Positions 15,418 to 27,289 are shown, numbered from the stretch's first letter. The stretch: 64,000 nt of DNA from a bacterium (GCA_031411255.1 JANOAS010000011.1:36376-100375), one strand, 5' to 3'. Program-made: numbers and translations. The notes: a model not told the origin generated them from the letters alone.

Positions 15418-17472
15418 ACCTACACCCTCCACTCCACCCCCGCCGCCGATGCGCCGGACATCGACTTCAAGGCCAGCCTGAACGCTGCGCAGTACGAGGC
15501 CGTGTCCTCGCCTCCCGGGCAGGCGCTCGTCATCGCCGGGGCGGGCTCGGGAAAAACGCGCACCCTCACCTACCGCGTGGCCTGGCTGCTCCAGAACGGC
15601 ATCGCTGCGGAGAACATCCTCCTCCTCACCTTTACCAACAAGGCGGCGCGGGAAATGATGGAGCGCGTGAACGCCCTCGTTCCCGGCCAGGCCGGCGGGC
15701 TCTGGAGCGGGACCTTCCACTCCATTGGCAACCGCATCCTCCGCCGCCACGCAGACTCCATCGGCTTCACGAAGCAGTTCTCCATCCTCGACTCCGACGA
15801 CCAGAAATCTATGATGACGAAAGTCATCGACGAGTCCGGCGAGGCCAAGCTGGCGGGCGGTTCCGCCAAGGGGCGGGGAAAAAAGAAGGAGGATGGATTT
15901 CCGAAAGCGCAGGTCATCAGCGGCATGATCAGCCTGGCCACGAACACCTGTGAATCCCTCGCCACCGTCATCGAGCAGCGCTACCCGTATTTCGAGGAGT
16001 ACTCCGCCGGGCTGAAAAAAGTGGCCGCGCTCTACCAGTCGAAGAAGCAGAAGGCGAACAGCATGGACTTTGACGACCTGCTGGCCCTCACCGTGGAGCT
16101 GCTCTCGGACAACGACGCCGTGCGCAAGCACTACCAGCGGCAGTTCCAGTTCATCCTCGTGGACGAGTACCAGGACACGAACGCCCTCCAGAGCGAAATG
16201 ATCGACCTCCTGGCCGGGGAGCATGGGAACATCATGGTCGTCGGCGACGACGCGCAGTCCATCTACTCGTGGCGCGGGGCGGATTTCGAAAACATCCTCC
16301 GCTTTCTGGAGAAGTACCCGAAGGGGAAAAAGTACGTCATCGAGACGAACTACCGCAGCGTGCCCGAGGTGCTGGAGCTGGCCAACGAGGCCATCGCGAA
16401 CAACGTGCGGCAATTCAAAAAGAACCTCGTCGCCGCCCGGCCCTCGCAGCAGATGAAGCCCGCGCTCATCGAGGTGAACACGCCCTCCCAGCAGGCGCAG
16501 TTCGTCAGCCAGCGGATGCGGGAGCTGCACGAGCAGGAGGGGATCGAGTATTCCCAGATGGCCGTGCTTTACCGCGCCCATTTCCAGAGCATGGAGGTGC
16601 AGATGCAGCTCACGCAGGACCGCGTGCCGTTCGTCATCACCAGCGGGCTCCGGTTTTTCGAGCAGCAGCATGTGAAGGACGTCTGCGCCTTCCTGAAATG
16701 GGCCGCCAACCCGCTGGACGAGGTCTCCTTTGACCGCCTCATCCGCCTCCTGCCCGGCGTGGGGCCCGGCGCAGCGGCCAAGATCTGGCTGGAGTGGATC
16801 GCCACCCCGGCCTCCCGCCTGGAGCAGCCGCCCGCCTCGTATTCCATGATCCTCGGCGCGTTTAAAAAAGTGCCCACGCGCGCCGCCGGAGCCTGGGAGC
16901 AGGTCGGGCACATCTTTGACGAGTTTCTCGACGGCACCGGCGCCTTTCACCCGCCCGCCGCCCTGCTCACCAGCATCATCGAGGGCATCTACGACGACTA
17001 CGCCCGCTCCGAGTTCGACAACTACGACTCCCGCAAGCAGGACCTCGACCAGCTGCGGAATTTCTCCGAGCGCTTCACCGACCTGAACGAAATGCTCGCC
17101 GACCTGGCCCTCCTGACCAACGCCGACGACTCCAGCCCGAAGGACCGCAAGCCCAAGCCCGGCGAGGACGCCGCCGTCCTCACCAGCATCCACCAGGCCA
17201 AGGGGCTGGAGTGGAAAGTCGTCTTCATCATCTGGCTCGCCCAGGGCATGTTCCCGAACAAGCGCGTCATCGACGAGGGCGGCCCCGAGGCCCTGGAGGA
17301 GGAGCGCCGCCTCTTCTACGTCGCCGTCACCCGCGCCATGGACCAGCTCCACCTCCTCTGGCCCCGCTTCTGGCCCAAGGCCTACTCCGGCGACACCTTC
17401 CAGGAGCCCTCCCAGTTCCTCGGCGAATTCGACCCGGAGCGGGTGGAGGAGTGGAATATTGGCGGGTTTTGA
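15418..17472 (+). CDS. uvrD: ATP-dependent DNA helicase UvrD/PcrA
   Basis: Walker A GAGSGKT, UvrD helicase motifs (TFTNKAAREM, VDEYQDTN, YRS) and a C-terminal UvrD_C domain. Confidence 0.9.
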   Translation, partial: TYTLHSTPAADAPDIDFKASLNAAQYEAVSSPPGQALVIAGAGSGKTRTLTYRVAWLLQNGIAAENILLLTFTNKAAREMMERVNALVPGQAGGLWSGTFHSIGNRILRRHADSIGFTKQFSILDSDDQKSMMTKVIDESGEAKLAGGSAKGRGKKKEDGFPKAQVISGMISLATNTCESLATVIEQRYPYFEEYSAGLKKVAALYQSKKQKANSMDFDDLLALTVELLSDNDAVRKHYQRQFQFILVDEYQDTNALQSEMIDLLAGEHGNIMVVGDDAQSIYSWRGADFENILRFLEKYPKGKKYVIETNYRSVPEVLELANEAIANNVRQFKKNLVAARPSQQMKPALIEVNTPSQQAQFVSQRMRELHEQEGIEYSQMAVLYRAHFQSMEVQMQLTQDRVPFVITSGLRFFEQQHVKDVCAFLKWAANPLDEVSFDRLIRLLPGVGPGAAAKIWLEWIATPASRLEQPPASYSMILGAFKKVPTRAAGAWEQVGHIFDEFLDGTGAFHPPAALLTSIIEGIYDDYARSEFDNYDSRKQDLDQLRNFSERFTDLNEMLADLALLTNADDSSPKDRKPKPGEDAAVLTSIHQAKGLEWKVVFIIWLAQGMFPNKRVIDEGGPEALEEERRLFYVAVTRAMDQLHLLWPRFWPKAYSGDTFQEPSQFLGEFDPERVEEWNIGGF

Positions 17473-17573
17473 TTTCGAGGCGGTAAAGGCCCTGACTGGC
17501 CGAAAATCCCTCCCGTTCCCTCTCCGGCGGTTGCATGGGGGCTCAAATCGGGCAAAGTGCCCCCCTTTCCCCG

Positions 17574-18311
17574 ATGTCCGAGACGCCCGCCACCGAGCCG
17601 CCAGCCGCCAATCGTCCACCCCGCCACGTCGCCGTCATCATGGACGGGAACGGGCGGTGGGCGAAGGAGCGCGGCCTGCCCCGCACGGAGGGGCACCGGG
17701 CCGGGGCGGACTCCGTGGAGCGTTGTGTGGACTCGTGCCACGAGGCCGGGGTCGAGTTCCTCACCCTGTACGCCTTTTCCTCTGAAAACTGGAAACGCCC
17801 CGCAGCCGAGGTGGCTGCCCTGATGGCGCTGCTGGAGCTTTTTCTGAGGGAAAAGACCCCGTACATGCTGCGGAAGAACGTGCGCCTCCAGGCCATCGGC
17901 CGCCTGTCGGACCTGCCCCAGCGCTGCCAGGACGAGCTGAACCGCTCCATCGCCGCCACGGCGGGGAACACCGGCATCACGCTCATCCTCGCCCTCAGCT
18001 ATGGCGGGCGGGAGGAAATCATTGACGGCGTCCAGAGCATTGTGCGCGACGTACAGTCGGGAAAGCTCGACCCCGCCGGCATCACCGCCTCCGTTTTCAG
18101 CAGCCACCTTTACACCCGGCCGTTTCCGGATCCCGACCTCCTCATCCGCACCTCCGGGGAGATGCGCGTCTCGAATTTCCTCCTCTGGCAGATCAGCTAC
18201 GCGGAAATCTGGGTGACGAAGAAGCTCTGGCCCGACTTTAACAAGGCGGACCTCGACGAGGCCATCGCCGACTATCAGCGCCGCCACCGGAGATTCGGCG
18301 GGCTCACCTGA
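17574..18311 (+). CDS. uppS: isoprenyl transferase (undecaprenyl-diphosphate synthase)
   Basis: HVAVIMDGNGRWA and FSSENWKRP motifs characteristic of cis-prenyltransferases. Confidence 0.9.
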   Translation: MSETPATEPPAANRPPRHVAVIMDGNGRWAKERGLPRTEGHRAGADSVERCVDSCHEAGVEFLTLYAFSSENWKRPAAEVAALMALLELFLREKTPYMLRKNVRLQAIGRLSDLPQRCQDELNRSIAATAGNTGITLILALSYGGREEIIDGVQSIVRDVQSGKLDPAGITASVFSSHLYTRPFPDPDLLIRTSGEMRVSNFLLWQISYAEIWVTKKLWPDFNKADLDEAIADYQRRHRRFGGLT

Positions 18312-18332
18312 GCCGCCTCCCGCCCCAGCCCC

Positions 18333-19763
<1,431 letters not shown>

Positions 19764-19784
19764 GTTCGCAGAACTCGCAGGCTC

Positions 19785-20112
19785 ATGGCAACCAAGGACA
19801 GTCGGTATGATGCGGTGGTGATCGGCGCGGGCCCGAACGGCCTGGCGGCGGCCATCACGCTGGCTCGGATGGGGCTCGGGGTGCTCGTCGTGGAGGCGCG
19901 GGAGACGGTGGGTGGTGGCACGCGCTCGGCGGAGTTGACCCTGCCGGGGTTTGTCCACGACGTCTGCTCGGCCATCCACCCGCTGGCGTCGTCATCGCCG
20001 TTTTTCCGGATGCTGCCGCTGGAGGGCTTTGGGCTGGAGTGGATCCACCCGGAGGTGCCGCTGGCGCATCCGCTGGAGGATGGACGCGGGGCGGCACTGC
20101 ATCGCAGTGTGC
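19785..20112 (+). repeat. left 328-bp imperfect direct repeat flanking the island
   Basis: Aligns with 23536-23863. About 17 mismatches over 316 aligned nt (about 95%), mostly synonymous third-position changes. Confidence 0.85.
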
Positions 20113-20138
20113 CGATCCTGAGCACTGCGGGCGCCTGA
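19785..20138 (+). pseudogene. truncated 5' fragment (107 conserved aa plus 10 unrelated aa) of a FAD-dependent oxidoreductase, duplicate of 23536-25008
   Basis: [24 protein letters not shown]...AALHR is about 97% identical at protein level to the N-terminus of the intact gene at 23536. Reading frame diverges at 20113 and stops at 20138. Confidence 0.75.
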
Positions 20139-20381
20139 AGCTTCCGTTTCCGCATAACGAGCAGGGAGAAACGCTTTCAACATTCATCTTTCAACGCTCG
20201 GCAGAATTGTTCGCCACAAGCAGGTCCAGACGGCCGATAAAACCGCGTGCGCCGTTCGAAACCGCCGGAGCGGAGAGGCAGGGCGGCCCGTTATGTCAAA
20301 AATGCACACCGCCCTGATTTCAATTGCTATTTCCACCCTACCGCCCCAGCTTTTAACAGCCGACTTGAGCTTCCAATCTTG

Positions 20382-22730
20382 TTATTCGGCGGCTGGATCG
20401 GGACCCGTTCGTATTTCACACTTACAAGAAAGCTTCATGGCGACTGCTTTTGAAACCCGGTCGAGAAGGCCTGTCATTCTATGCTTGGCCCCAGGCCACA
20501 CAAAGATTAAGATCCGGTTCCTCGTGGCCGCTAGTCGCTCTGCCGATGTGGCCTCATCGCACAAATTGAGAAAATGAACTTCGAATGCTTTAGCGCCCTT
20601 GGAGGCGAAGAGCACAGTAAATCGATCTTCGTGCGGAATTTGAAGGGCTTCCGAAATTTCGGCATCTGGCAGTTTTACGGCTGAGTCGTACACTACCTCC
20701 CCTAAGTAATCGTACAATCGTCTGTACTTAACCAAGTATGCCATCTCGCGGACGAGCGGATTGCCGAATTTCTCTAGTTCTGCGAACAATTCGACATCGG
20801 TCAATCTCAGAATCTCGTTGAACGTGTACTTTCCAGACTGGCGCAGCTCGCCAATAGCAATACTCATCATTGCTTGGGCACAAAGATTTTCAGGGCAAAA
20901 ATAGACGTTATCGTAAAGCCAGACGTAAAGCTTGGCGGCCACAGTCAATATGTCTCGTTTTTCGAGTTTGTAGGCCGCGACGTATCGCTTGCCTAGGGCA
21001 CGTATATGCATGGCACGCATTAATACGTCTTTTTCTGAGGCAAGTTTATCAGATGATTTTCGCATTTTTGCCCAACCTTGGCATTTGGTTTGCACGCAGG
21101 GTATTGTATGATAGGAGTCCCTCAGCATGTAGTCCAATCGATCTAGGTCTAAGCCATCGTTAGACAGAATGCAGCCGAGGGGGTGGGTTTTTCGAAGTAT
21201 TGCGGCAATGTTGTCACTCGCGGCAACGGCCCCTCTATATGCGAAATCAAGATCAGCGTATGCTCTGCCTTGTTCCACTGCATTTAAAAACAGCTCAATG
21301 CTGTCCCTCTCATGGTCGCCGGCCACCATTAGTTTGTCCCGAACCAGATCGATTGTATGGCCTAGTGGCCCATGGCCAATGTCGTGCAAAATACAACTAA
21401 GCACGAAGTGCAGGTGATCGCTGGCCAGTGCGGCGAGGTCATAATCAGGCGGAAGCCGATACCGTTGATCACCTCCGTTGGCGAAGGAAGAGCAAAACTG
21501 ATCAGCTAGATGCGCGACCCCCAATGTGTGGGAAAAGCGGTCGTGTGAGGCACTCTGCGCTTTTAGATTGACGAAGGAAAGCTGCTTAATATTTCTCAAA
21601 CGCTGTACTTCCCCCGAATCTATGAAATCTCGCACTTTTGGAGCGATGGATTTGGAGAAGCAAAATTCGCCGTGAATGATATCTGCAAATTTCGGCAAGC
21701 CAACCGGTAGTAGGCGCCCTTCGCACTTCGGGATGAATTCCGGACCATGCCTCAGCAAACGTTTTTCGTCTTTTGGCAGTTCAACTCCGAGTGGATTTTT
21801 GCTAGTAAGCGAGTTGACCACGGAACGCAAGAAAACATCCGCTTTTTCACCAACTGGGTGAAGTCGAATATTATCAGAACTGCACTTTTCTTTAAGGCGT
21901 TGAACTCCTTGCGGCATTCCACTTCGGTTAACCACGAAAACTTGTGTTGGATGCTTTCTGCGACTGGCCGTTTGCGCGAGAACCTCCACCAAATCGAAGT
22001 CCAAAAAAGCATAACCCAAGAAAATCCAAACGGAGCAGGATTCCATAGCTTTGGAGAGGGCTAGATATGGCTCGAAGTTTGATTTTCGTCGTTGTGAGGC
22101 TTTGAATCTTGTTTTTCTTTTGTATCCTCCGATCAATGTCCATGGCTGACTAAGGCTGCCATGGATTTTCATAACAACCTTGCTAAGGTCCGTCCCACCG
22201 TGATATTCGAAGCCCTCAGGATTGCTGGCGACATGGTAGTCCCGACCAAGCAGCTTGTTCATGCTTTCCGCGACAGCGTGAAAAGCGTGATCTAGCTTTT
22301 CGTCGAAATTTGTTGTTGCAAAACCTCCAAATTTCGAATCCGAAAAAAACCAGCGAGCCAGAAGGTAGTATGCCGCTGGGACCGGCTGCTCTGGGGGGAA
22401 CAGCTCGGCAAGGAGCGTTGAATAGTCTAAAGTTTGGTCCCTCTTTTCGATTATATGCTCCCAGACCTGGTCCGGAGATGCCGGATCACTGAACTCGGCT
22501 TCGAACTTGCCGACCAGGTCCTTGTCCAATTCTGCCGAATCTAGGGTGGACGGTTCAACGCAGTAGTACTTCCGCAGCATCGCTCGCCGTAAATCAGCGC
22601 CGAGCGGAAGTTGAAGCCGCGCGTCTACGTCGGAATCTACACCAGCGCCGGCGCCAGCAAAAACAAAGATTTTTTGTCCAGTGCCGAGAGTGGTGAATAC
22701 GTTAACCGCGTTTACTAAAGTTGAATTCAT
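20382..22730 (-). CDS. SIR2-like (DHS-like NAD-binding) domain fused to a SAMHD1/dGTPase-like HD dNTP triphosphohydrolase domain. Candidate anti-phage defence protein.
   Basis: N-terminus has SIR2_2-type motifs: FVFAGAGAGVDS (GAGxS), TTNFD (TTNYD-like, putative catalytic Asn141), KIHGS (His190) and IFLGYAFLDFD. C-terminus aligns with human SAMHD1: VQRLRNIKQLSFV...ASHDRFSHTLGV (SAMHD1 FQRLRYIKQL...ASHNRFEHSLGV), LHDIGHGPLGH (CHDLGHGPFSH), DGLDLDRLDYMLRD (NGIDVDKWDYFARD) and LTDVELFAELEKFGNPLVREMAYLVKYRRLYDYLGEV ([39 protein letters not shown]). Confidence 0.85.
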   Translation of the reverse strand: MNSTLVNAVNVFTTLGTGQKIFVFAGAGAGVDSDVDARLQLPLGADLRRAMLRKYYCVEPSTLDSAELDKDLVGKFEAEFSDPASPDQVWEHIIEKRDQTLDYSTLLAELFPPEQPVPAAYYLLARWFFSDSKFGGFATTNFDEKLDHAFHAVAESMNKLLGRDYHVASNPEGFEYHGGTDLSKVVMKIHGSLSQPWTLIGGYKRKTRFKASQRRKSNFEPYLALSKAMESCSVWIFLGYAFLDFDLVEVLAQTASRRKHPTQVFVVNRSGMPQGVQRLKEKCSSDNIRLHPVGEKADVFLRSVVNSLTSKNPLGVELPKDEKRLLRHGPEFIPKCEGRLLPVGLPKFADIIHGEFCFSKSIAPKVRDFIDSGEVQRLRNIKQLSFVNLKAQSASHDRFSHTLGVAHLADQFCSSFANGGDQRYRLPPDYDLAALASDHLHFVLSCILHDIGHGPLGHTIDLVRDKLMVAGDHERDSIELFLNAVEQGRAYADLDFAYRGAVAASDNIAAILRKTHPLGCILSNDGLDLDRLDYMLRDSYHTIPCVQTKCQGWAKMRKSSDKLASEKDVLMRAMHIRALGKRYVAAYKLEKRDILTVAAKLYVWLYDNVYFCPENLCAQAMMSIAIGELRQSGKYTFNEILRLTDVELFAELEKFGNPLVREMAYLVKYRRLYDYLGEVVYDSAVKLPDAEISEALQIPHEDRFTVLFASKGAKAFEVHFLNLCDEATSAERLAATRNRILIFVWPGAKHRMTGLLDRVSKAVAMKLSCKCEIRTGPDPAAE

Positions 22731-22964
22731 GTTGTCTTCGGGGTGCTTAGTCTATAGATGGCGCTGGCGAAAAATCAATCTCAATATGCTCAAATGAACA
22801 GGTTTTGTGCCTTTTCCGGCCTGTCTTGTGACTTATTGTGTCTGATCCTAGAACGCCTGCTTGGAGCCATGGAGGCTGTATTGCGGTGGAGCGAGGGTGC
22901 TATGTGAAAATTCGAGTTCCTTCCACGATATCTTAGGGTGACCAAAGTCTAGGCGAATGTCGAG

Positions 22965-22990
22965 ATCTGGTCACGGTCAATCTGGTCACG
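22965..22990 (+). repeat. tandem 11-nt direct repeat atctggtcacg(gtca)atctggtcacg in the putative promoter region of the SIR2-HD gene
   Basis: Exact 11-mer repeated with a 4-nt spacer, about 240 bp upstream of the gene start on the coding strand. Confidence 0.6.
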
Positions 22991-23535
22991 CTCACAGTGT
23001 AGTTATTTGTTAATTGTCAGTGGCGTGAATGCCTCAGGGGTCATTCCCAAGAGGTGTTTCACCGCGCCCACTGCTCCCGCCCATTTCGACGAGGACGCGG
23101 ACGCATTTCCAAGCTTGTTGGAAGCGGCGGGCGAGGTCGTTGGATTTCCTGAAGTGGTTGGCCAAGGCGCGGGCCGTGAGGTGGGCGGTGTCCTCATGAG
23201 CGGCCTCGGCCTGGGGGCGGCCCCAAGGGCGGGGGGGGCGGCGGGGCGCTGAGCCAGGTGAGCGATGAAATCGGGGCGTCGGCAGACCGGCTGCGCGGGG
23301 GCTGTGGTCGGGGCTCTGTACGGCGGGAGGCACGTGCGGATCATTTTGCTGTGCTTTCGGGGGCTCGAATTCATTGGAGGTAACGCTACGCCGATTATAG
23401 GCGGGTCAAGCGGCAAATGGTGGGCAGGGATCGCTGAGAGGCGGACTGGGGGCGGTTGGGGGAAGCAATGGGGCGGCTGAAAAATCGCCCGCATTCCCCG
23501 TCGCGGAGTACGGCGGGGCCTGCTAGGGGAGGGGG

Positions 23536-23863
23536 ATGGCGGAAAAGGACACTCGGTATGATGCGGTGGTGATCGGCGCGGGCCCGAACGGGCTGGCGGC
23601 GGCCATCACGCTGGCGCGGATGGGGCTCGGGGTGCTCGTCGTGGAGGCGCGGGAGACGGTGGGCGGCGGCACGCGCTCGGCGGAGTTGACGCTCCCCGGG
23701 TTTGTCCACGACGTCTGCTCGGCCATCCATCCGCTGGCCTCCTCATCGCCGTTTTTCCGGATGCTGCCGCTGGAGGGTTTCGGGCTGGAATGGATCCACC
23801 CGGAGGTGCCGCTCGCGCATCCGCTGGAGGATGGACGCGGGGCGGCGCTGCATCGCTGTGTGC
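23536..23863 (+). repeat. right 328-bp imperfect direct repeat (5' end of the intact oxidoreductase gene)
   Basis: See left repeat. Confidence 0.85.
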
Positions 23864-25008
23864 GGGAAACGGCGGCGGGGCTGGGCGCGGACGGGGCGGC
23901 GTACGAGGATCTTTTCAGCGGACTGGCGGAGAAGGCGGGTGACCTTTTCGAGGAACTCCTCGGCCCGATGCCCATGCCGCCGCAGCACCCCTTCACCCTC
24001 GCAGGATTCGGCCTGAAGGCGGTCTGGTCCGCGCGCGGACTGGCGCGGCGGCGGTTTAAAGCAGAAGAAGCGCGGGCGCTTTTCATGGGAAACGCGGCGC
24101 ACTCGTTCCTGCCGCTCACGCGTCCGCTCACCGCGGCGGTGGGCATCATGCTGCACCTGAGCGCGCACTGGGCGGGCTGGCCGGTGGCGCGGGGCGGGTC
24201 GCAGAAAATCGCCGACGCCATGGTCGCCTACCTGCGCAGCCTGGGCGGGGAAATCCAGTGCGGCCGGTCGGTCGCCTCGCTGGCCGAGCTGCCGGACGCG
24301 CGCGCCTACCTTTTCGACACGAGTCCGCAGGCGATGGCCCGCATCGCCGGGGATGAGCTGCCCGCCGGCTACCAGCGGCGACTCGGCCGCTACCGGTTCG
24401 GCCCCGCCGCTTACAAGCTGGACCTCGCGCTCTCCGGTCCCATCCCGTGGAAAAATGAAGCCTGCCGCCGCGCCGGCACCGTGCATGTGGGCGGGACGGC
24501 GGACGAGATCGTGGCGGCGGAGGCGGCCACCTGGCGGGGCGAGGCTCCGGAGCGGCCCTTCATCCTCGTCGGCCAGCAGAGCCTCTGCGATTCCACCCGC
24601 GCGCCCGCCGGCCAGCACACCGGCTGGGTCTACGCCCACGTGAACCACGCCTGCCGGGAGGACATGACGGAGCGCATCATCTCCCGCATCGAACACTTCG
24701 CCCCCGGCTTCCGGGACGTCATCCTCGCCCGCCACGTGACGACGCCGGCCGACTTCGAGGCGTACAACCCCAACTACGTGGGCGGCGACATCGTGGGTGG
24801 CGTGCAGGACCTGACGCAAATGTTCACCCGCCCCGTGGCAAGGTGGAACCCCTACACCACACCCTCCCGCCGCCTTTTTCTTTGCTCCGCCTCCACCCCG
24901 CCCGGCGCCGGCGTCCACGGCATGGCCGGCTGGCACGCCGCCCGCGCCGCGCTGGCCGGAGGGCTGGACCGCTTCACGTTTCCGAACGGGGACCCGGGGA
25001 GGGGCTGA
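23536..25008 (+). CDS. NAD(P)/FAD-dependent oxidoreductase (phytoene desaturase-related family, COG1233-like)
   Basis: 490 aa with an N-terminal Rossmann dinucleotide motif [15 protein letters not shown] and amine-oxidase/CrtI-like length. Confidence 0.85.
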   Translation: MAEKDTRYDAVVIGAGPNGLAAAITLARMGLGVLVVEARETVGGGTRSAELTLPGFVHDVCSAIHPLASSSPFFRMLPLEGFGLEWIHPEVPLAHPLEDGRGAALHRCVRETAAGLGADGAAYEDLFSGLAEKAGDLFEELLGPMPMPPQHPFTLAGFGLKAVWSARGLARRRFKAEEARALFMGNAAHSFLPLTRPLTAAVGIMLHLSAHWAGWPVARGGSQKIADAMVAYLRSLGGEIQCGRSVASLAELPDARAYLFDTSPQAMARIAGDELPAGYQRRLGRYRFGPAAYKLDLALSGPIPWKNEACRRAGTVHVGGTADEIVAAEAATWRGEAPERPFILVGQQSLCDSTRAPAGQHTGWVYAHVNHACREDMTERIISRIEHFAPGFRDVILARHVTTPADFEAYNPNYVGGDIVGGVQDLTQMFTRPVARWNPYTTPSRRLFLCSASTPPGAGVHGMAGWHAARAALAGGLDRFTFPNGDPGRG

Positions 25009-25056
25009 GACGCCTGCCCTGCATTTGACGCGGGGCCGCGAGGGCGGCGCGGCCTC

Positions 25057-25626
25057 TCACAAAAACGGCGCGATCTCCACGAGCAGCGTCCGCAGTTTTT
25101 CGAGCGTGCCGTGCGCCTCGCACCAGCGCTTGACGTACTCCATGTCCAGCCGGGCTGGAGTTTGGACCGCGAGCACATCGCGCGCGTCCTCGATGTCCTT
25201 CGCCCGGCCCCAGCGCAGTTTCTGCACGATCACGTCCTCGGCGGTGGGGAGGGAGACTTCCATTTCCAGGACAGGCACCCAAACCCGCACACGGCGGCTG
25301 AATCGCTCCACCACAAAGGGGTCATCGCCAAGCAGGAAAAACTCCACTTGGAGGGACCGGTTCCGCACAGCGCGGAGGATGTACCGCAAGCTGCCTGTGA
25401 TGGTTTCGAAAGTCACCTGAGGATCAAACTCAAGAACCGGAGCAAGCTCACTCACGACTGGGTCGAGGTCGGCGGGCGTCTGCAAGGAGAGCACGACATC
25501 GACGTCCTTCGTGCTCCGGGGAATCGCGTAGACGCCGGAGGAATAGGCGCCGACCAGCATGTAAGGCACCGCGCATTTTTCAAGCGCCCGCAGGACCCGG
25601 CATGCCATGTGGTCAACCGTCGTCAT
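25057..25626 (-). CDS. minimal nucleotidyltransferase-fold protein (AbiEii/DUF6036-like)
   Basis: About 189 aa with a GS...DVDV NTase motif (VGAYSSGVYAIPRSTKDVDVVL). Start ATG at 25626 overlaps the stop of the upstream small ORF (ATGA). The longer ORF-track N-terminus is rejected. Confidence 0.55.
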   Translation of the reverse strand: MTTVDHMACRVLRALEKCAVPYMLVGAYSSGVYAIPRSTKDVDVVLSLQTPADLDPVVSELAPVLEFDPQVTFETITGSLRYILRAVRNRSLQVEFFLLGDDPFVVERFSRRVRVWVPVLEMEVSLPTAEDVIVQKLRWGRAKDIEDARDVLAVQTPARLDMEYVKRWCEAHGTLEKLRTLLVEIAPFL

Positions 25627-25937
25627 GAGGCCGCCAGCGGCGGCAGTGGTTTGAACCGCCCCTCCTCGTGCAGACGGCGGCCCAGGTCGATGCGCCGCGC
25701 CACCTCGTTCCAGCCATCGCTGGAGCTGGCGAAATTGAACTGGTTCATCGCGCCAGCGAACATCAATTGCAGGCTCATGTTCGAGCACTCGAACGCCTCC
25801 GACAGCCGCTGCTCCGGCGTCATGGCGCGGGCACGCTCCACCTTGCCGCGATAAATCGCGTCCTGGAGGGCTTTCAGGGCAACTGGATCGTCTTCCACCG
25901 GCATGGGGCAGGATGCCACCATTCGGCCCGGGTGCAA
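25623..25937 (-). CDS. small hypothetical protein (about 93-104 aa), translationally coupled upstream partner of the NTase
   Basis: 4-nt ATGA overlap with the NTase gene. No recognisable domain. Start uncertain. Confidence 0.4.
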   Translation of the reverse strand: MHPGRMVASCPMPVEDDPVALKALQDAIYRGKVERARAMTPEQRLSEAFECSNMSLQLMFAGAMNQFNFASSSDGWNEVARRIDLGRRLHEEGRFKPLPPLAAS

Positions 25938-26020
25938 TGGCGGGGTGGGCGGCTCGATCCTGCGCCAATCCCTGGGAATTTTTCCAGGGCATTGCGGGAT
26001 TTTGCGCCAAAGTGGGCACG

Positions 26021-27289
26021 ATGAAAACCGACTCTCAAGAAATCCGGCGTGTGCGCGACCTGAGCCCGCAGCAGTGGCGCTCCGGCGTCGCGGCGTGGCT
26101 GGGCTGGATGTTCGACGGACTGGACATGCACATCTACACGCTGGTGTCCGTGCCCTTTGTCGCCTCCCTCATGCACCTGGCCACGACCGACCCGCAGGTG
26201 GGCCGCCACGGGGCCATCATCAATGCCGCGTTCCTCATCGGCTGGGCGCTGGGCGGGGCGTTTTTTGGCCGGGTGGGGGATCTGCTGGGCCGGAGCAAGA
26301 CGCTCTGCCTGACCATTCTCACCTACGCCGCGTTCACGGGGCTCTCGTTTTTTGCCACAGAGTGGTGGCACCTCATGGGCTGCCGGTTTCTCTCCGCGCT
26401 GGGCATCGGCGGGGAGTGGGCGGTGGGCGCGTCCCTGCTCTCCGAAACGTGGCCGAAGCGCTGGCGCCCGTGGATCGCGGCCACGCTCCAGTGCGCCATC
26501 AACATCGGCGTGCTCCTGGCCTGCCTCTCCGGCTGGCTGCTGGAGCGGGCGGAGCCGCGCTGGATCTTCCTCGTCGGCGTGTTGCCGGCGTTCATCGTGC
26601 TCTGGATCCGCCACGCCGTGCCGGAGACGGAGGAGTGGCACGCCGCCCGCAATGAAGCCGGGACGAAGCCGCCCGGCGTGATCGATCTTTTCCGCGGCGC
26701 TGTCTTCTCCGTCACGTGGCGCGTGCTCGCCATCTGCGGCGTCTCCCTCACCGCGCACTGGACCTTCATGTACTGGTTCCTCACCCACGTGCGGAAACAC
26801 CCGGAGGTCATCAGCCTCGATCCCGCCGGGCAAAACCACCAGGCCGTCCTGGGCATGGTCTGCCTCATGGGGGGCTCGCTGATGGGCAATTTTTTCTCCG
26901 GCTGGATGGCCAGTCTCTGGGGCTACCGCCGCACCCTGGTGGCGATGATGCTCGGCTATTTCGCCGTCATGTTCGGCACGTATTCGTTTGATCTCGGGCT
27001 CAGCGCGCTCTTCGGCATGTTCACGGTCATCGGGTTTTTCCAGGGCCTCTTCGGCCTTTTCACCATGGCCCTCCCGCCCGTCTTCCCCACGCTGCTGCGC
27101 ACCACGGGCGCCGGATTTTGCTACAATTTCGGCCGCATCGCCGCCGCCGCCGGCACGGTTTTCTTCGGCTTTTCCACGCCCATGAAATCCGCCGGCGACT
27201 ACCGTCTCGCCCTCGTCTACGCCTCCTTCCTCTTCATCCCCGCTGCCCTGCTGGCCATGATGCTGCCGCAGGAAAAAGAGGAGGCGTGA
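26021..27289 (+). CDS. MFS transporter
   Basis: About 422 aa with 12 TM helices and an MFS-like repeat pattern. The ORF-track 5' extension (25913) overlaps the divergent gene, so the start is placed at ATG 26021. Confidence 0.8.
   Translation: MKTDSQEIRRVRDLSPQQWRSGVAAWLGWMFDGLDMHIYTLVSVPFVASLMHLATTDPQVGRHGAIINAAFLIGWALGGAFFGRVGDLLGRSKTLCLTILTYAAFTGLSFFATEWWHLMGCRFLSALGIGGEWAVGASLLSETWPKRWRPWIAATLQCAINIGVLLACLSGWLLERAEPRWIFLVGVLPAFIVLWIRHAVPETEEWHAARNEAGTKPPGVIDLFRGAVFSVTWRVLAICGVSLTAHWTFMYWFLTHVRKHPEVISLDPAGQNHQAVLGMVCLMGGSLMGNFFSGWMASLWGYRRTLVAMMLGYFAVMFGTYSFDLGLSALFGMFTVIGFFQGLFGLFTMALPPVFPTLLRTTGAGFCYNFGRIAAAAGTVFFGFSTPMKSAGDYRLALVYASFLFIPAALLAMMLPQEKEEA

What the first reader, a model, noticed from the sequence alone, without database searches (positions are those of the whole stretch)
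19785..23863. Low-GC island bounded by 328-bp diverged direct repeats that duplicate the 5' end of a host oxidoreductase gene
Sequence 19785-20112 and 23536-23863 align at about 95% identity. I counted 17 mismatches over 316 aligned nt, and almost all are synonymous third-codon-position changes. Copy 2 continues into an intact 490-aa FAD-dependent oxidoreductase. Copy 1 stops being homologous at 20113, exactly where the base composition drops from the high-GC flanks to roughly 48% GC (by eye), and terminates 10 codons later. The pattern of synonymous divergence means the two copies evolved separately under selection, in different genomes. An in-situ duplication would not produce this. That is the signature of an integrative element that carried its own version of the target gene's 5' end, or of a homologous-recombination-mediated island swap. 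No integrase or transposase is present, so the element is either a remnant or was delivered by recombination between related genomes.
Basis: seen in the sequence. Interest (0 to 1): 0.7.

Follow-up and report, generated by a model that had tools for sequence, protein, structure and literature searches.

The report
Defence-gene island flanked by duplicated gene start
A 3.4-kb piece of foreign DNA carrying one probable anti-phage gene sits inside the start of a bacterial oxidoreductase gene, which stays intact because the insert brought a slightly different replacement copy of that start; this arrangement is already known from elements such as e14 in E. coli, so the case is a tidy example and not a new principle.

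Summary
Window 19785-20112 and 23536-23863 are ungapped direct repeats. The core is 319 nt at 94.7% identity with 17 mismatches: 15 synonymous third-position changes and 2 conservative replacements (dS about 0.2, dN/dS 0.05-0.09). Copy 2 starts an intact 490-aa CrtI-like FAD oxidoreductase. Copy 1 is a 117-codon stub lying 21 nt after an NtrC-type regulator gene. The DNA between them is mostly low-GC (about 49% against 65%). The last 533 nt before copy 2 are host-like in GC, G-rich and unexplained. An independent Logan contig spans both junctions at 100% identity. No recombinase is present. The divergence pattern rejects a partial in-situ duplication followed by decay (P about 1e-4). It matches E. 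coli icd/icdC around prophage e14 (12 mismatches in 165 nt, 11 at third positions). My best reading is a decayed, integrase-less integrative element that carried a 5' mimic of its target gene. Recombination-driven import from a related genome remains a serious rival. No close relative exists in any searched collection, so no empty site could be examined. I file it as a new member of a known kind, of modest interest.

The parts
18333..19763 (+). NtrC-type sigma-54 response regulator. This is the host gene directly upstream; its stop codon lies 21 nt before the ATG of copy 1.
   Evidence: Pfam Response_reg, Sigma54_activat (E = 2e-73) and HTH_8. UppS-NtrC synteny is kept in relatives at 60-71% aa, but nothing downstream of NtrC is shared.
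19785..20112 (+). Repeat copy 1. It is the displaced, truncated 5' end (codons 1-109) of the oxidoreductase gene. The ORF reads on into island DNA and stops at 20138 (117 aa).
   Evidence: It still scores as an FAD/NAD-binding Rossmann N-terminus. GC3 is 0.844, which is host-like.
20113..20381 (.). Left arm of the insert: 269 nt of non-coding DNA downstream of the SIR2-HD stop codon, 55.8% GC.
   Evidence: The ORFs here have no Pfam hit. No terminal repeat pairs it with the right arm.
20382..22730 (-). Cargo gene of 782 aa. The N-terminal part is a SIR2_2 domain (aa 137-279; invariant TTNFD 139-143 and H190). The C-terminal part is a SAMHD1/EF1143-like HD dNTP triphosphohydrolase core (invariant H401, H449-D450, D530).
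   Evidence: Pfam SIR2_2 at 34.2 bits (cut-off 24.5) and HD at 23.5 bits (cut-off 22). PDB sequence hits to 2o6i (E = 5e-18) and SAMHD1. AlphaFold model with pLDDT 84.5. Foldseek to SAMHD1 with E about 1e-13 and TMt 0.6-0.7. GC3 is 0.511.
22731..23002 (.). Low-GC (48.9%) region upstream of SIR2-HD. It contains a cluster of three TGGTCAC heptamers (22938-22989), two of them inside a 15-nt tandem repeat at 22965-22994.
23003..23535 (.). High-GC (65.7%), G-rich (G 41.8%, C 23.8%) spacer directly upstream of copy 2, ending in GGAGG 3 nt before the ATG. Its composition is host-like. Coding periodicity is weak and no homologue was found.
   Evidence: No family hits. No homologue of the best minus-frame translation.
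23536..23863 (+). Repeat copy 2: the 5' end (codons 1-109) that is joined to the rest of the gene. I infer that it arrived with the insert.
   Evidence: GC3 is 0.862.
23536..25008 (+). Intact 490-aa CrtI/phytoene-desaturase-family FAD-dependent oxidoreductase, the target gene.

Best explanation
A foreign cassette (window 20113-23863) was inserted at codon 109/110 of a Verrucomicrobia-type host's oxidoreductase gene.

**What the cassette brought.** It carried a low-GC SIR2 plus SAMHD1-like HD defence gene, a 533-nt host-like leader, and its own 328-nt version of the target gene's 5' end with a start codon and a Shine-Dalgarno-like GGAGG.

**Result of insertion.** The gene is rebuilt as cassette 5' end plus host 3' end and stays functional. 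The host's original 5' end is left as a stub behind the NtrC gene.

**Most likely vehicle.** I think this was a site-specific integrative element of the e14/phage 21-icd kind, mirrored to the 5' end as in SXT-prfC. It has since lost its integrase and most of its body, which makes it a CIME-like remnant.

**Consequence.** RecA recombination between the two 95%-identical repeats would remove the island without a scar and leave a hybrid, functional gene next to NtrC.

**Shown and inferred.** Shown: the repeats, their selective signature, the foreign composition, the single cargo gene with intact catalytic motifs, the absence of a recombinase, and both junctions in a second assembly. Inferred: which copy came with the insert, the site-specific mechanism, the loss of an integrase, and the defence function.
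For: - The repeats are real and unique in the window.
- dS is 0.19-0.21 and dN/dS 0.05-0.09. The partial-duplication-and-decay model is rejected at P about 1e-4.
- Copy 1 keeps the conserved Ser108.
- The cargo has GC3 0.51 against 0.86-0.90 in host genes, and this is the only low-GC block in the 64 kb.
- The geometry is a mirror image of e14 in E. coli K-12. There the element-borne 3' end of icd and the displaced icdC differ at 12 of 165 nt, 11 of them at third positions (PMC13626634).
- Integration into the 5' end of a protein gene is known for SXT/R391 in prfC (PMC5812530).
- A 36%-identical SIR2-HD homologue lies beside a tyrosine integrase, an HTH_17 excisionase-like gene, RadC and a methyltransferase (L044). 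This gene family therefore does travel on integrative elements.
- Both gene starts look natural. Copy 1 begins 21 nt after the NtrC stop; copy 2 has GGAGG 3 nt before its ATG.
- A Logan contig spans both junctions.
Against: - No integrase, excisionase or transposase, and no detectable remnant of one, lies in the island or among the ORFs scanned nearby.
- The stretch of identity at the presumed crossover end is short, at most 9 and 6 nt after the last 32-nt block, so no convincing core site can be named.
- No terminal inverted repeats or arm-type repeats sit near the ends. The only repeat cluster is about 550 nt from copy 2.
- None of 42 homologous oxidoreductase loci shows a second 5' fragment, so there is no sign that this gene is a recurrent attachment site.
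- The 533-nt host-like leader fits equally well with plain chromosomal DNA from a related donor.
- No empty-site or full-element relative was found.
Confidence: 0.42

Rival explanations
1. Recombination-driven import without any site-specific recombinase. A related donor about 5% diverged had the SIR2-HD block and G-rich leader directly upstream of its oxidoreductase. There are two routes. (a) A circularised donor fragment [oxidoreductase nt 1-328 + 20113-23535] integrated by a single Campbell-type homologous crossover in the recipient's gene. (b) A linear fragment was anchored by homology in the gene and its far end joined illegitimately at 20112/20113, which is homology-facilitated illegitimate recombination (HFIR).
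For: - The absence of any recombinase or remnant is explained directly.
- The 533-nt leader has host-like GC, as expected for chromosomal DNA of a relative.
- The repeat is 328 nt long, ample for RecA. Mismatches are spread evenly with no converted tract.
- HFIR with 3-10 bp microhomology joints is documented in transformable bacteria (PMC6382021, citing de Vries and Wackernagel 2002).
- The gene downstream of the oxidoreductase (DUF6036) also looks foreign, with GC3 0.67. The locus may be a variable hotspot exchanged between relatives.
Against: - Both routes need two rare steps: circularisation and then a single crossover, or an illegitimate joint inside the very segment that should have paired homologously.
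- HFIR normally deletes recipient DNA and does not leave a duplication.
- Homology starts exactly at the start codon. That fits a selected gene mimic better than a random fragment end, unless donor and recipient happen to differ in synteny precisely there.
- Neither the donor nor competence in this lineage is known.
Confidence: 0.3
2. An old whole-gene tandem duplication of the oxidoreductase, with both paralogues kept under selection (which would explain the synonymous divergence). The low-GC cassette later replaced the 3' three-quarters of the upstream paralogue.
For: It would reproduce dN/dS of about 0.05-0.09 without any inter-genome transfer of the repeat. It also explains why both copies have natural-looking starts.
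Against: - 0 of 42 homologous loci carry a tandem paralogue or second fragment.
- A tandem unit should repeat the spacer 23003-23535 after copy 2, and it does not.
- Two paralogues with nearly identical proteins (2-4 differences in 109 aa) would have to persist to dS 0.2 without gene conversion or loss, which is unlikely.
- There is no homology upstream of the ATG.
Confidence: 0.08
3. A metagenome assembly chimera. Two co-occurring strains with 5%-diverged alleles were stitched together, and the duplication does not exist in any one genome.
For: The genome is evidently from a metagenome: the only exact matches are a Logan run contig and an NCBI contig of 175,782 nt. The repeats share exact blocks of up to 47 nt where assemblers can switch paths.
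Against: - A second assembly (Logan, k = 31) contains the island joined to 47 nt of copy-1-type sequence on one side and 47 nt of copy-2-type sequence on the other, each with its own diagnostic bases. A truncated oxidoreductase fragment therefore really does abut the island at 20112/20113.
- A strain switch inside the gene would give one hybrid gene, not a stub joined to the far end of the island.
- What remains unverified is only the link from 19785-20065 back to NtrC.
Confidence: 0.07

Closest known systems
Cryptic prophage e14 (and phage 21) integrated in icd of E. coli K-12, with the displaced fragment icdC
   Same: The element inserts inside a protein-coding gene and supplies a replacement end, so the gene stays intact. 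The original end is left as a pseudogene at the far side. The two copies differ mostly at synonymous third positions: icd/icdC has 12 of 165 nt different, 11 at third positions, 92.7% identity (PMC13626634). Here the figures are 17 of 319, 15 at third positions, 94.7% identity. Deletion between the repeats yields a functional hybrid gene.
   Different: e14 replaces the 3' end, whereas here the 5' end is replaced, together with start codon and leader. e14 is 15 kb and keeps intE and xisE. Here the insert is 3.4 kb with one gene and no recombinase. The repeat here is twice as long.
SXT/R391 integrative conjugative elements in the 5' end of prfC
   Same: Site-specific insertion into the 5' extremity of a protein-coding gene (PMC5812530). 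From my own knowledge of Hochhut and Waldor 1999, not checked here, the element provides a new promoter and N-terminal coding sequence.
   Different: SXT is about 100 kb, encodes Int and Xis, and uses a short core site (17 bp from memory). It does not carry a long near-identical copy of the target gene's start.
CIMEs (cis-mobilizable elements): islands flanked by att sites that lack recombination and transfer genes
   Same: A short island bounded by direct repeats derived from a target gene, without an integrase (the concept is listed in ICEberg 2.0, PMC6323972, and in PMC5704250).
   Different: A CIME is defined relative to a known ICE or IME that uses the same att site. No such partner element is known here, and the repeats have not been shown to be att sites.
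SIR2-dGTPase fusion proteins noted in a survey of dGTPase homologues
   Same: The paper reports dGTPase domains fused to a SIR2-like domain in Verrucomicrobiota and Candidatus Methanophagales and proposes an immune role (PMC13519002). The cargo here has that architecture and comes from a Verrucomicrobia-like genome.
   Different: That report is bioinformatic only. No activity, phage phenotype or genomic context was given. Identity with the protein here cannot be checked with these tools.

Membership tests
Site-specific integrative element carrying a target-gene mimic (e14/phage 21-icd type) | Direct repeats at both ends made of a segment of the target gene, with the gene reconstituted and the displaced fragment at the far end | tested here: met
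   19785-20112 and 23536-23863. There is an intact 490-aa gene after copy 2 and a 117-codon stub at copy 1.
Site-specific integrative element carrying a target-gene mimic (e14/phage 21-icd type) | The two copies differ mainly at synonymous sites, because the element-borne copy evolved in other hosts | tested here: met
   15 of 17 differences are synonymous and dN/dS is 0.05-0.09. icd/icdC shows the same pattern.
Site-specific integrative element carrying a target-gene mimic (e14/phage 21-icd type) | An integrase (tyrosine or serine recombinase) encoded within the element | tested here: not met
   The only recognisable gene is SIR2-HD. Other ORFs and open frames have no Pfam, NCBIfam or PHROG hit. 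tblastn with six recombinase or excisionase examples gave only noise.
Site-specific integrative element carrying a target-gene mimic (e14/phage 21-icd type) | An identical core (overlap) sequence at the crossover end of both repeats | tested here: inconclusive
   At the right end the identical runs are 32, 9 and 6 nt, separated by single mismatches at 20096 and 20106. A 6-9 nt core is possible but cannot be told from chance.
Site-specific integrative element carrying a target-gene mimic (e14/phage 21-icd type) | Excision to a circular form and an empty site in related genomes | not testable with these tools
   There is no read access. No relative is closer than 73% aa (oxidoreductase) or 71% aa (NtrC) in any collection.
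CIME (att-flanked island without recombination genes) | Flanked by attL/attR of a known ICE or IME family that could mobilise it in cis | tested here: inconclusive
   Repeats are present and no recombinase is found, but no partner element was seen. 0 of 42 homologous loci have an insertion or second fragment at this gene.
Product of homology-facilitated illegitimate recombination | A homologous anchor on one side and a 3-10 bp microhomology joint on the other, usually with deletion of recipient DNA | tested here: inconclusive
   The anchor is plausible (oxidoreductase homology). The joint lies at 20112/20113, but the parental sequences needed to score microhomology are unknown (PMC6382021).
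SIR2-family NAD+-consuming defence effectors (ThsA, DSR, SIR2-HerA type) | A SIR2 domain with conserved catalytic Asn/Asp and His | tested here: met
   Pfam SIR2_2 at 34.2 bits against a cut-off of 24.5. T139-T140-N141-F142-D143 and H190-G191 are invariant in 23 homologues.
SIR2-family NAD+-consuming defence effectors (ThsA, DSR, SIR2-HerA type) | A match to a model of a described defence system | tested here: not met
   PADLOC gave only a partial dGTPase hit (E = 1.4e-6, aa 372-468) and no SIR2-system model.
SAMHD1/dGTPase-type HD dNTP triphosphohydrolases | The H...HD...D metal-binding motif and the SAMHD1 catalytic-core fold | tested here: met
   H401, H449-D450 and D530 are invariant. Sequence hits to 2o6i (E = 5e-18) and SAMHD1. 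Foldseek to SAMHD1 with E about 1e-13 and TMt 0.6-0.7 on a model of pLDDT 84.5. NCBIfam anti-phage dGTPase models score far below their cut-offs (16 bits against 400), so this is not an equivalog of the known anti-phage dGTPase.
Anti-phage defence gene (any family) | Protection against phage when expressed | not testable with these tools
   Only context is available. The gene is foreign in composition, a single-gene island, and a homologue lies next to an integrase, RadC and a methyltransferase.

The most novel reading that the evidence does not exclude
The cassette may be a recombinase-free mobile unit. It would be a single defence gene packaged with a 328-nt mimic of a conserved host gene's start plus its own leader. 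Host RecA alone could then insert it (Campbell-type, from a circle) into any related genome and remove it again without a scar, and the target gene would never be lost. The gene mimic would act as a portable homology 'att site' for defence-gene exchange among relatives.
Probability: 0.12. Interest if true: 0.6.

Novelty: new member of a known kind. Interest (0 to 1): 0.35.

Why it matters
The locus shows how an uncultivated Verrucomicrobia-type bacterium acquired a rare two-headed defence candidate, with an NAD+-consuming SIR2 domain and a dNTP-hydrolysing SAMHD1-like domain, without damaging the gene it landed in.

The structure is a clean natural example at the 5' end of a gene of the 'element brings a spare gene end' strategy. 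That strategy is best known from e14 and phage 21 at the 3' end of icd.

It also predicts a testable behaviour. Recombination between the repeats should delete the island precisely and leave a hybrid, working oxidoreductase gene.

For defence biology, the cargo is a ready candidate for expression and phage-challenge tests of a fusion that has so far only been noted in a survey (PMC13519002).

Tried and rejected
**Search for an empty site or a full element.** All attempts failed.
- The genome-contig scan with the oxidoreductase gave 39 loci, the best at 63% aa, with no shared synteny.
- The protein search gave a best hit of 73% aa. Three contexts were fetched and none was syntenic.
- A metagenome scan with a third-position-degenerate pattern of the lineage-specific peptide [19 protein letters not shown] gave 0 hits.
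- A metagenome scan with NtrC gave a best hit of 71% aa. UppS-NtrC synteny is kept, but the downstream genes are unrelated.
- Exact look-ups of the oxidoreductase, NtrC and the 117-aa stub found nothing on record.

**Remnants of a recombinase or any gene in 22731-23535 and 20113-20381.**
- Pfam, NCBIfam, PHROGs and PADLOC at permissive E-values found nothing.
- A homology search of the best minus-frame translation found nothing.
- tblastn with integrases, excisionases, a serine recombinase and a DDE transposase gave only noise.
- My early guesses of an AraC-type HTH or an integrase C-terminus in the G-rich spacer were not supported, and I dropped them.

**Other negative searches.**
- Rfam and tRNA scans of the whole window found nothing, so this is not a tRNA-type attachment site.
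- blastn of the island against the plasmid and phage collections gave no match.
- The sigma-54 promoter consensus occurs no more often than chance and never near either gene start.
- The viral-contig scan with the SIR2-HD alignment returned only HD-domain hits, many on giant-virus (GVMAG) contigs, and no full-length fusion.
- No terminal inverted or direct repeats link the two island arms.

**Tandem paralogues or recurrent insertion at this gene.** 0 of 42 homologous loci show either.

Full report

Yes. The repeat finder reports one long direct repeat in 17000-27000, at 19785-20084 and 23536-23835 (offset 3751). An ungapped base-by-base comparison extends it to 19785-20112 against 23536-23863. 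blastn of the region against the whole window gives one hit besides self: 19794-20112 against 23545-23863, 94.67% over 319 nt, E = 2.5e-142.

Those 319 nt contain 17 mismatches. Fifteen are at third codon positions and synonymous. Two change the protein conservatively (S6T and S108C). Codons 2-3 differ at four more bases (GCA ACC against GCG GAA). Nothing upstream of the ATG aligns, and homology ends at 20112/20113.

Copy 2 opens an intact 490-aa ORF (23536-25008). It has an FAD/NAD Rossmann N-terminus and an Amino_oxidase-type body. Sources call its relatives phytoene-desaturase-family or NAD(P)/FAD-dependent oxidoreductases, and NCBIfam scores are below the equivalog cut-offs. Copy 1 reads 8 codons into unrelated DNA and stops at 20138.

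GC falls from 0.71 to 0.45-0.55 at 20113. This is the only low-GC block in the 64 kb.

**2. Is it an assembly artefact?**

The exact product of the cargo gene is on record on a Logan contig from run SRR20217193 (3517 nt). That contig equals window 20066-23582 at 100% identity. It ends 47 nt inside each repeat, just where 31-mers shared by the two copies begin. It carries the copy-1-specific bases (20096, 20106) at one end and the copy-2-specific bases (23541-23544, 23552) at the other.

So a truncated oxidoreductase fragment really does abut the island on one side, and a differently spelled start of the gene abuts it on the other. What remains unverified is the continuity from 20065 back to NtrC. 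That needs reads.

**3. What lies between the repeats?**

There is one recognisable gene: 20382-22730 on the minus strand, 782 aa, GC 0.493, GC3 0.511, against GC3 0.86-0.90 for neighbouring genes.

- Pfam finds SIR2_2 (aa 137-279, 34.2 bits, cut-off 24.5) and HD (aa 398-479).
- The C-terminal roughly 450 aa match E. faecalis EF1143 (2o6i, E = 5e-18) and SAMHD1 by sequence.
- They also match SAMHD1 by fold: model pLDDT 84.5, Foldseek E about 1e-13, TMt 0.6-0.7.
- In an alignment of 23 homologues, the SIR2 motif TTNFD (139-143) and H190 are invariant, as is the HD tetrad H401, H449-D450, D530. Both halves therefore look catalytically competent.
- The family is small. Among 5.8 billion clusters I found about 25 full-length relatives, all at 38% identity or less.
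- One relative lies beside a tyrosine integrase, an HTH_17 gene, RadC, a methyltransferase and an SMC-like ATPase (L044).
- PADLOC has no model for the fusion, only a partial dGTPase hit.
- A 2026 survey notes SIR2-dGTPase fusions in Verrucomicrobiota and Methanophagales and suggests an immune role, without experiments (PMC13519002).

I infer a defence effector that depletes NAD+, dNTPs or both. This is inference, not shown.

The island is not homogeneous. 20113-20381 (269 nt, 55.8% GC) and 22731-23002 (272 nt, 48.9% GC) flank the gene. 23003-23535 (533 nt) is 65.7% GC, like the host, and strongly G-rich (G 41.8%, C 23.8%). It has only weak codon periodicity, no family hits and no homologue. 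It ends in GGAGG 3 nt before the ATG of copy 2.

At the compositional border sit three TGGTCAC heptamers within 52 nt. Two of them lie in a 15-nt tandem repeat.

No integrase, excisionase or transposase, and no recognisable remnant of one, is present. None was found among the ORFs scanned within about 10 kb either. The window has no tRNA gene and no Rfam match.

**4. What does the divergence say?**

Nei-Gojobori counts give dS = 0.19-0.21, dN = 0.009-0.019 and dN/SdS-ratio dN/dS = 0.05-0.09.

Suppose the stub had been a drifting pseudogene since a local partial duplication. Then about 41% of differences should be synonymous. The observed 15 of 17 has P about 1e-4, and P is about 4e-7 if both copies were neutral. 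The stub has no indel or frameshift. At position 108 it keeps the Ser found in all close homologues, while the functional copy has Cys.

So copy 1 spent almost all of the divergence time as part of a working gene. The two copies are alleles from lineages about 5% apart, and they were brought together recently. The 17 differences are evenly spread and the longest identical run is 47 nt, so there has been no visible gene conversion since.

**5. How did it get there?**

The geometry is: host upstream gene, displaced host 5' end, foreign DNA, replacement 5' end, rest of the host gene. This is the mirror image of e14 in E. coli K-12.

I fetched that locus and compared the last 165 nt of icd (element-borne) with icdC (displaced). 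There are 12 mismatches, 11 at third positions, and 92.7% identity. The literature describes the same structure, and also the hybrid gene formed on excision (PMC13626634). Insertion into the 5' extremity of a protein gene is known for SXT/R391 in prfC (PMC5812530). My preferred reading is therefore a site-specific integrative element with a 5' gene mimic that has since lost its integrase and most of its body, in other words a CIME-like remnant (PMC6323972, PMC5704250).

The weak points are these:
- There is no recombinase remnant.
- No convincing core site exists. The identical runs at the crossover end are 9 and 6 nt.
- The 533-nt host-like leader could simply be chromosomal DNA of a related donor.

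That leads to the main rival, recombinase-free import from a relative that already had the SIR2-HD block upstream of its oxidoreductase. This could happen by a Campbell-type single crossover of a circularised fragment, or by homology-facilitated illegitimate recombination (PMC6382021). These routes explain the missing integrase. However, they need rarer events, and they do not naturally explain why homology begins exactly at the start codon.

A tandem whole-gene paralogue later truncated by the cassette would also give synonymous divergence. It is disfavoured because 0 of 42 homologous loci have a tandem copy, the spacer is not repeated after copy 2, and near-identical paralogues rarely persist to dS 0.2.

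An assembly chimera is unlikely, given the Logan contig.

**6. Why the choice cannot be settled here.**

No close relative is available.
- The best oxidoreductase relatives are 73% aa (protein database) and 63% aa (species genomes), with unrelated neighbours.
- A degenerate DNA pattern for a lineage-specific peptide found nothing in JGI metagenomes.
- The best NtrC relatives are 71% aa. UppS-NtrC is conserved, but what follows NtrC differs in every one.
- The island DNA matches nothing among plasmids or phages.

**7. Consequences and verdict.**

Whatever the entry route, the two 95%-identical 328-nt direct repeats lie 3.4 kb apart. This makes the island removable by RecA recombination, and removal would restore a hybrid, intact gene 21 nt after NtrC, exactly as e14 loss creates a hybrid icd. 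The downstream neighbour (a DUF6036 nucleotidyltransferase-like gene, GC3 0.67) also looks acquired, so the oxidoreductase may sit in a variable hotspot.

The finding is genuine and correctly described. Its interpretation is reasonable but not proven in its mechanism. The phenomenon belongs to a known kind. The cargo is the more unusual item, though its architecture has already been noted in print.

I score interest at 0.35.

Noticed in passing
window 22938-22989: Three TGGTCAC heptamers lie within 52 nt, one inverted and two inside the 15-nt tandem repeat ATCTGGTCACG[G/C]TCA at 22965-22994. They sit exactly at the low-GC/high-GC border, about 210-260 nt upstream of the SIR2-HD start. The whole 64 kb holds only 10 such heptamers. 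They could be an operator or recombinase arm-type sites.
   Followed up: partly
window 23003-23535: This 533-nt stretch has host-like GC (65.7%) and extreme G excess on the + strand (G 41.8%, C 23.8%; GC skew up to +0.35). It has no family hit, no homologue and only weak codon periodicity. A 163-codon proline-rich ORF on the minus strand (23003-23494) ends exactly at the compositional border. The origin of the stretch is unexplained.
   Followed up: partly
window 25057-26019 (minus strand), with a small ORF at 25623-25937: A DUF6036 nucleotidyltransferase-like gene lies directly downstream of the oxidoreductase. Its GC3 is 0.67 against 0.86-0.90 for host genes, so the oxidoreductase is flanked on both sides by foreign-looking DNA. 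PADLOC and NCBIfam gave no hit.
   Followed up: partly
window 20095-20109: A perfect 6-bp inverted repeat with a 3-nt spacer (CACTGC-ATC-GCAGTG) exists only in copy 1. It is created by the two copy-1-specific bases at 20096 and 20106, immediately before the end of homology. It may be chance or may relate to the joint.
   Followed up: no
window 20382-22730 and loci L044-L046: The SIR2 plus SAMHD1-like HD fusion family is very small: about 25 full-length relatives at 38% identity or less among 5.8 billion clusters. One member lies next to a tyrosine integrase, HTH_17, RadC, a methyltransferase and an SMC-like ATPase, and another lies next to RadC. Viral contigs gave only HD-domain hits, many on giant-virus (GVMAG) contigs.
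   Followed up: partly
window 17535-19763 and loci L047-L052: The UppS-NtrC gene pair is conserved in relatives down to 60% aa identity, but the gene after NtrC differs in each one. The 3' end of NtrC is therefore a recurrent synteny breakpoint in this group.
   Followed up: partly
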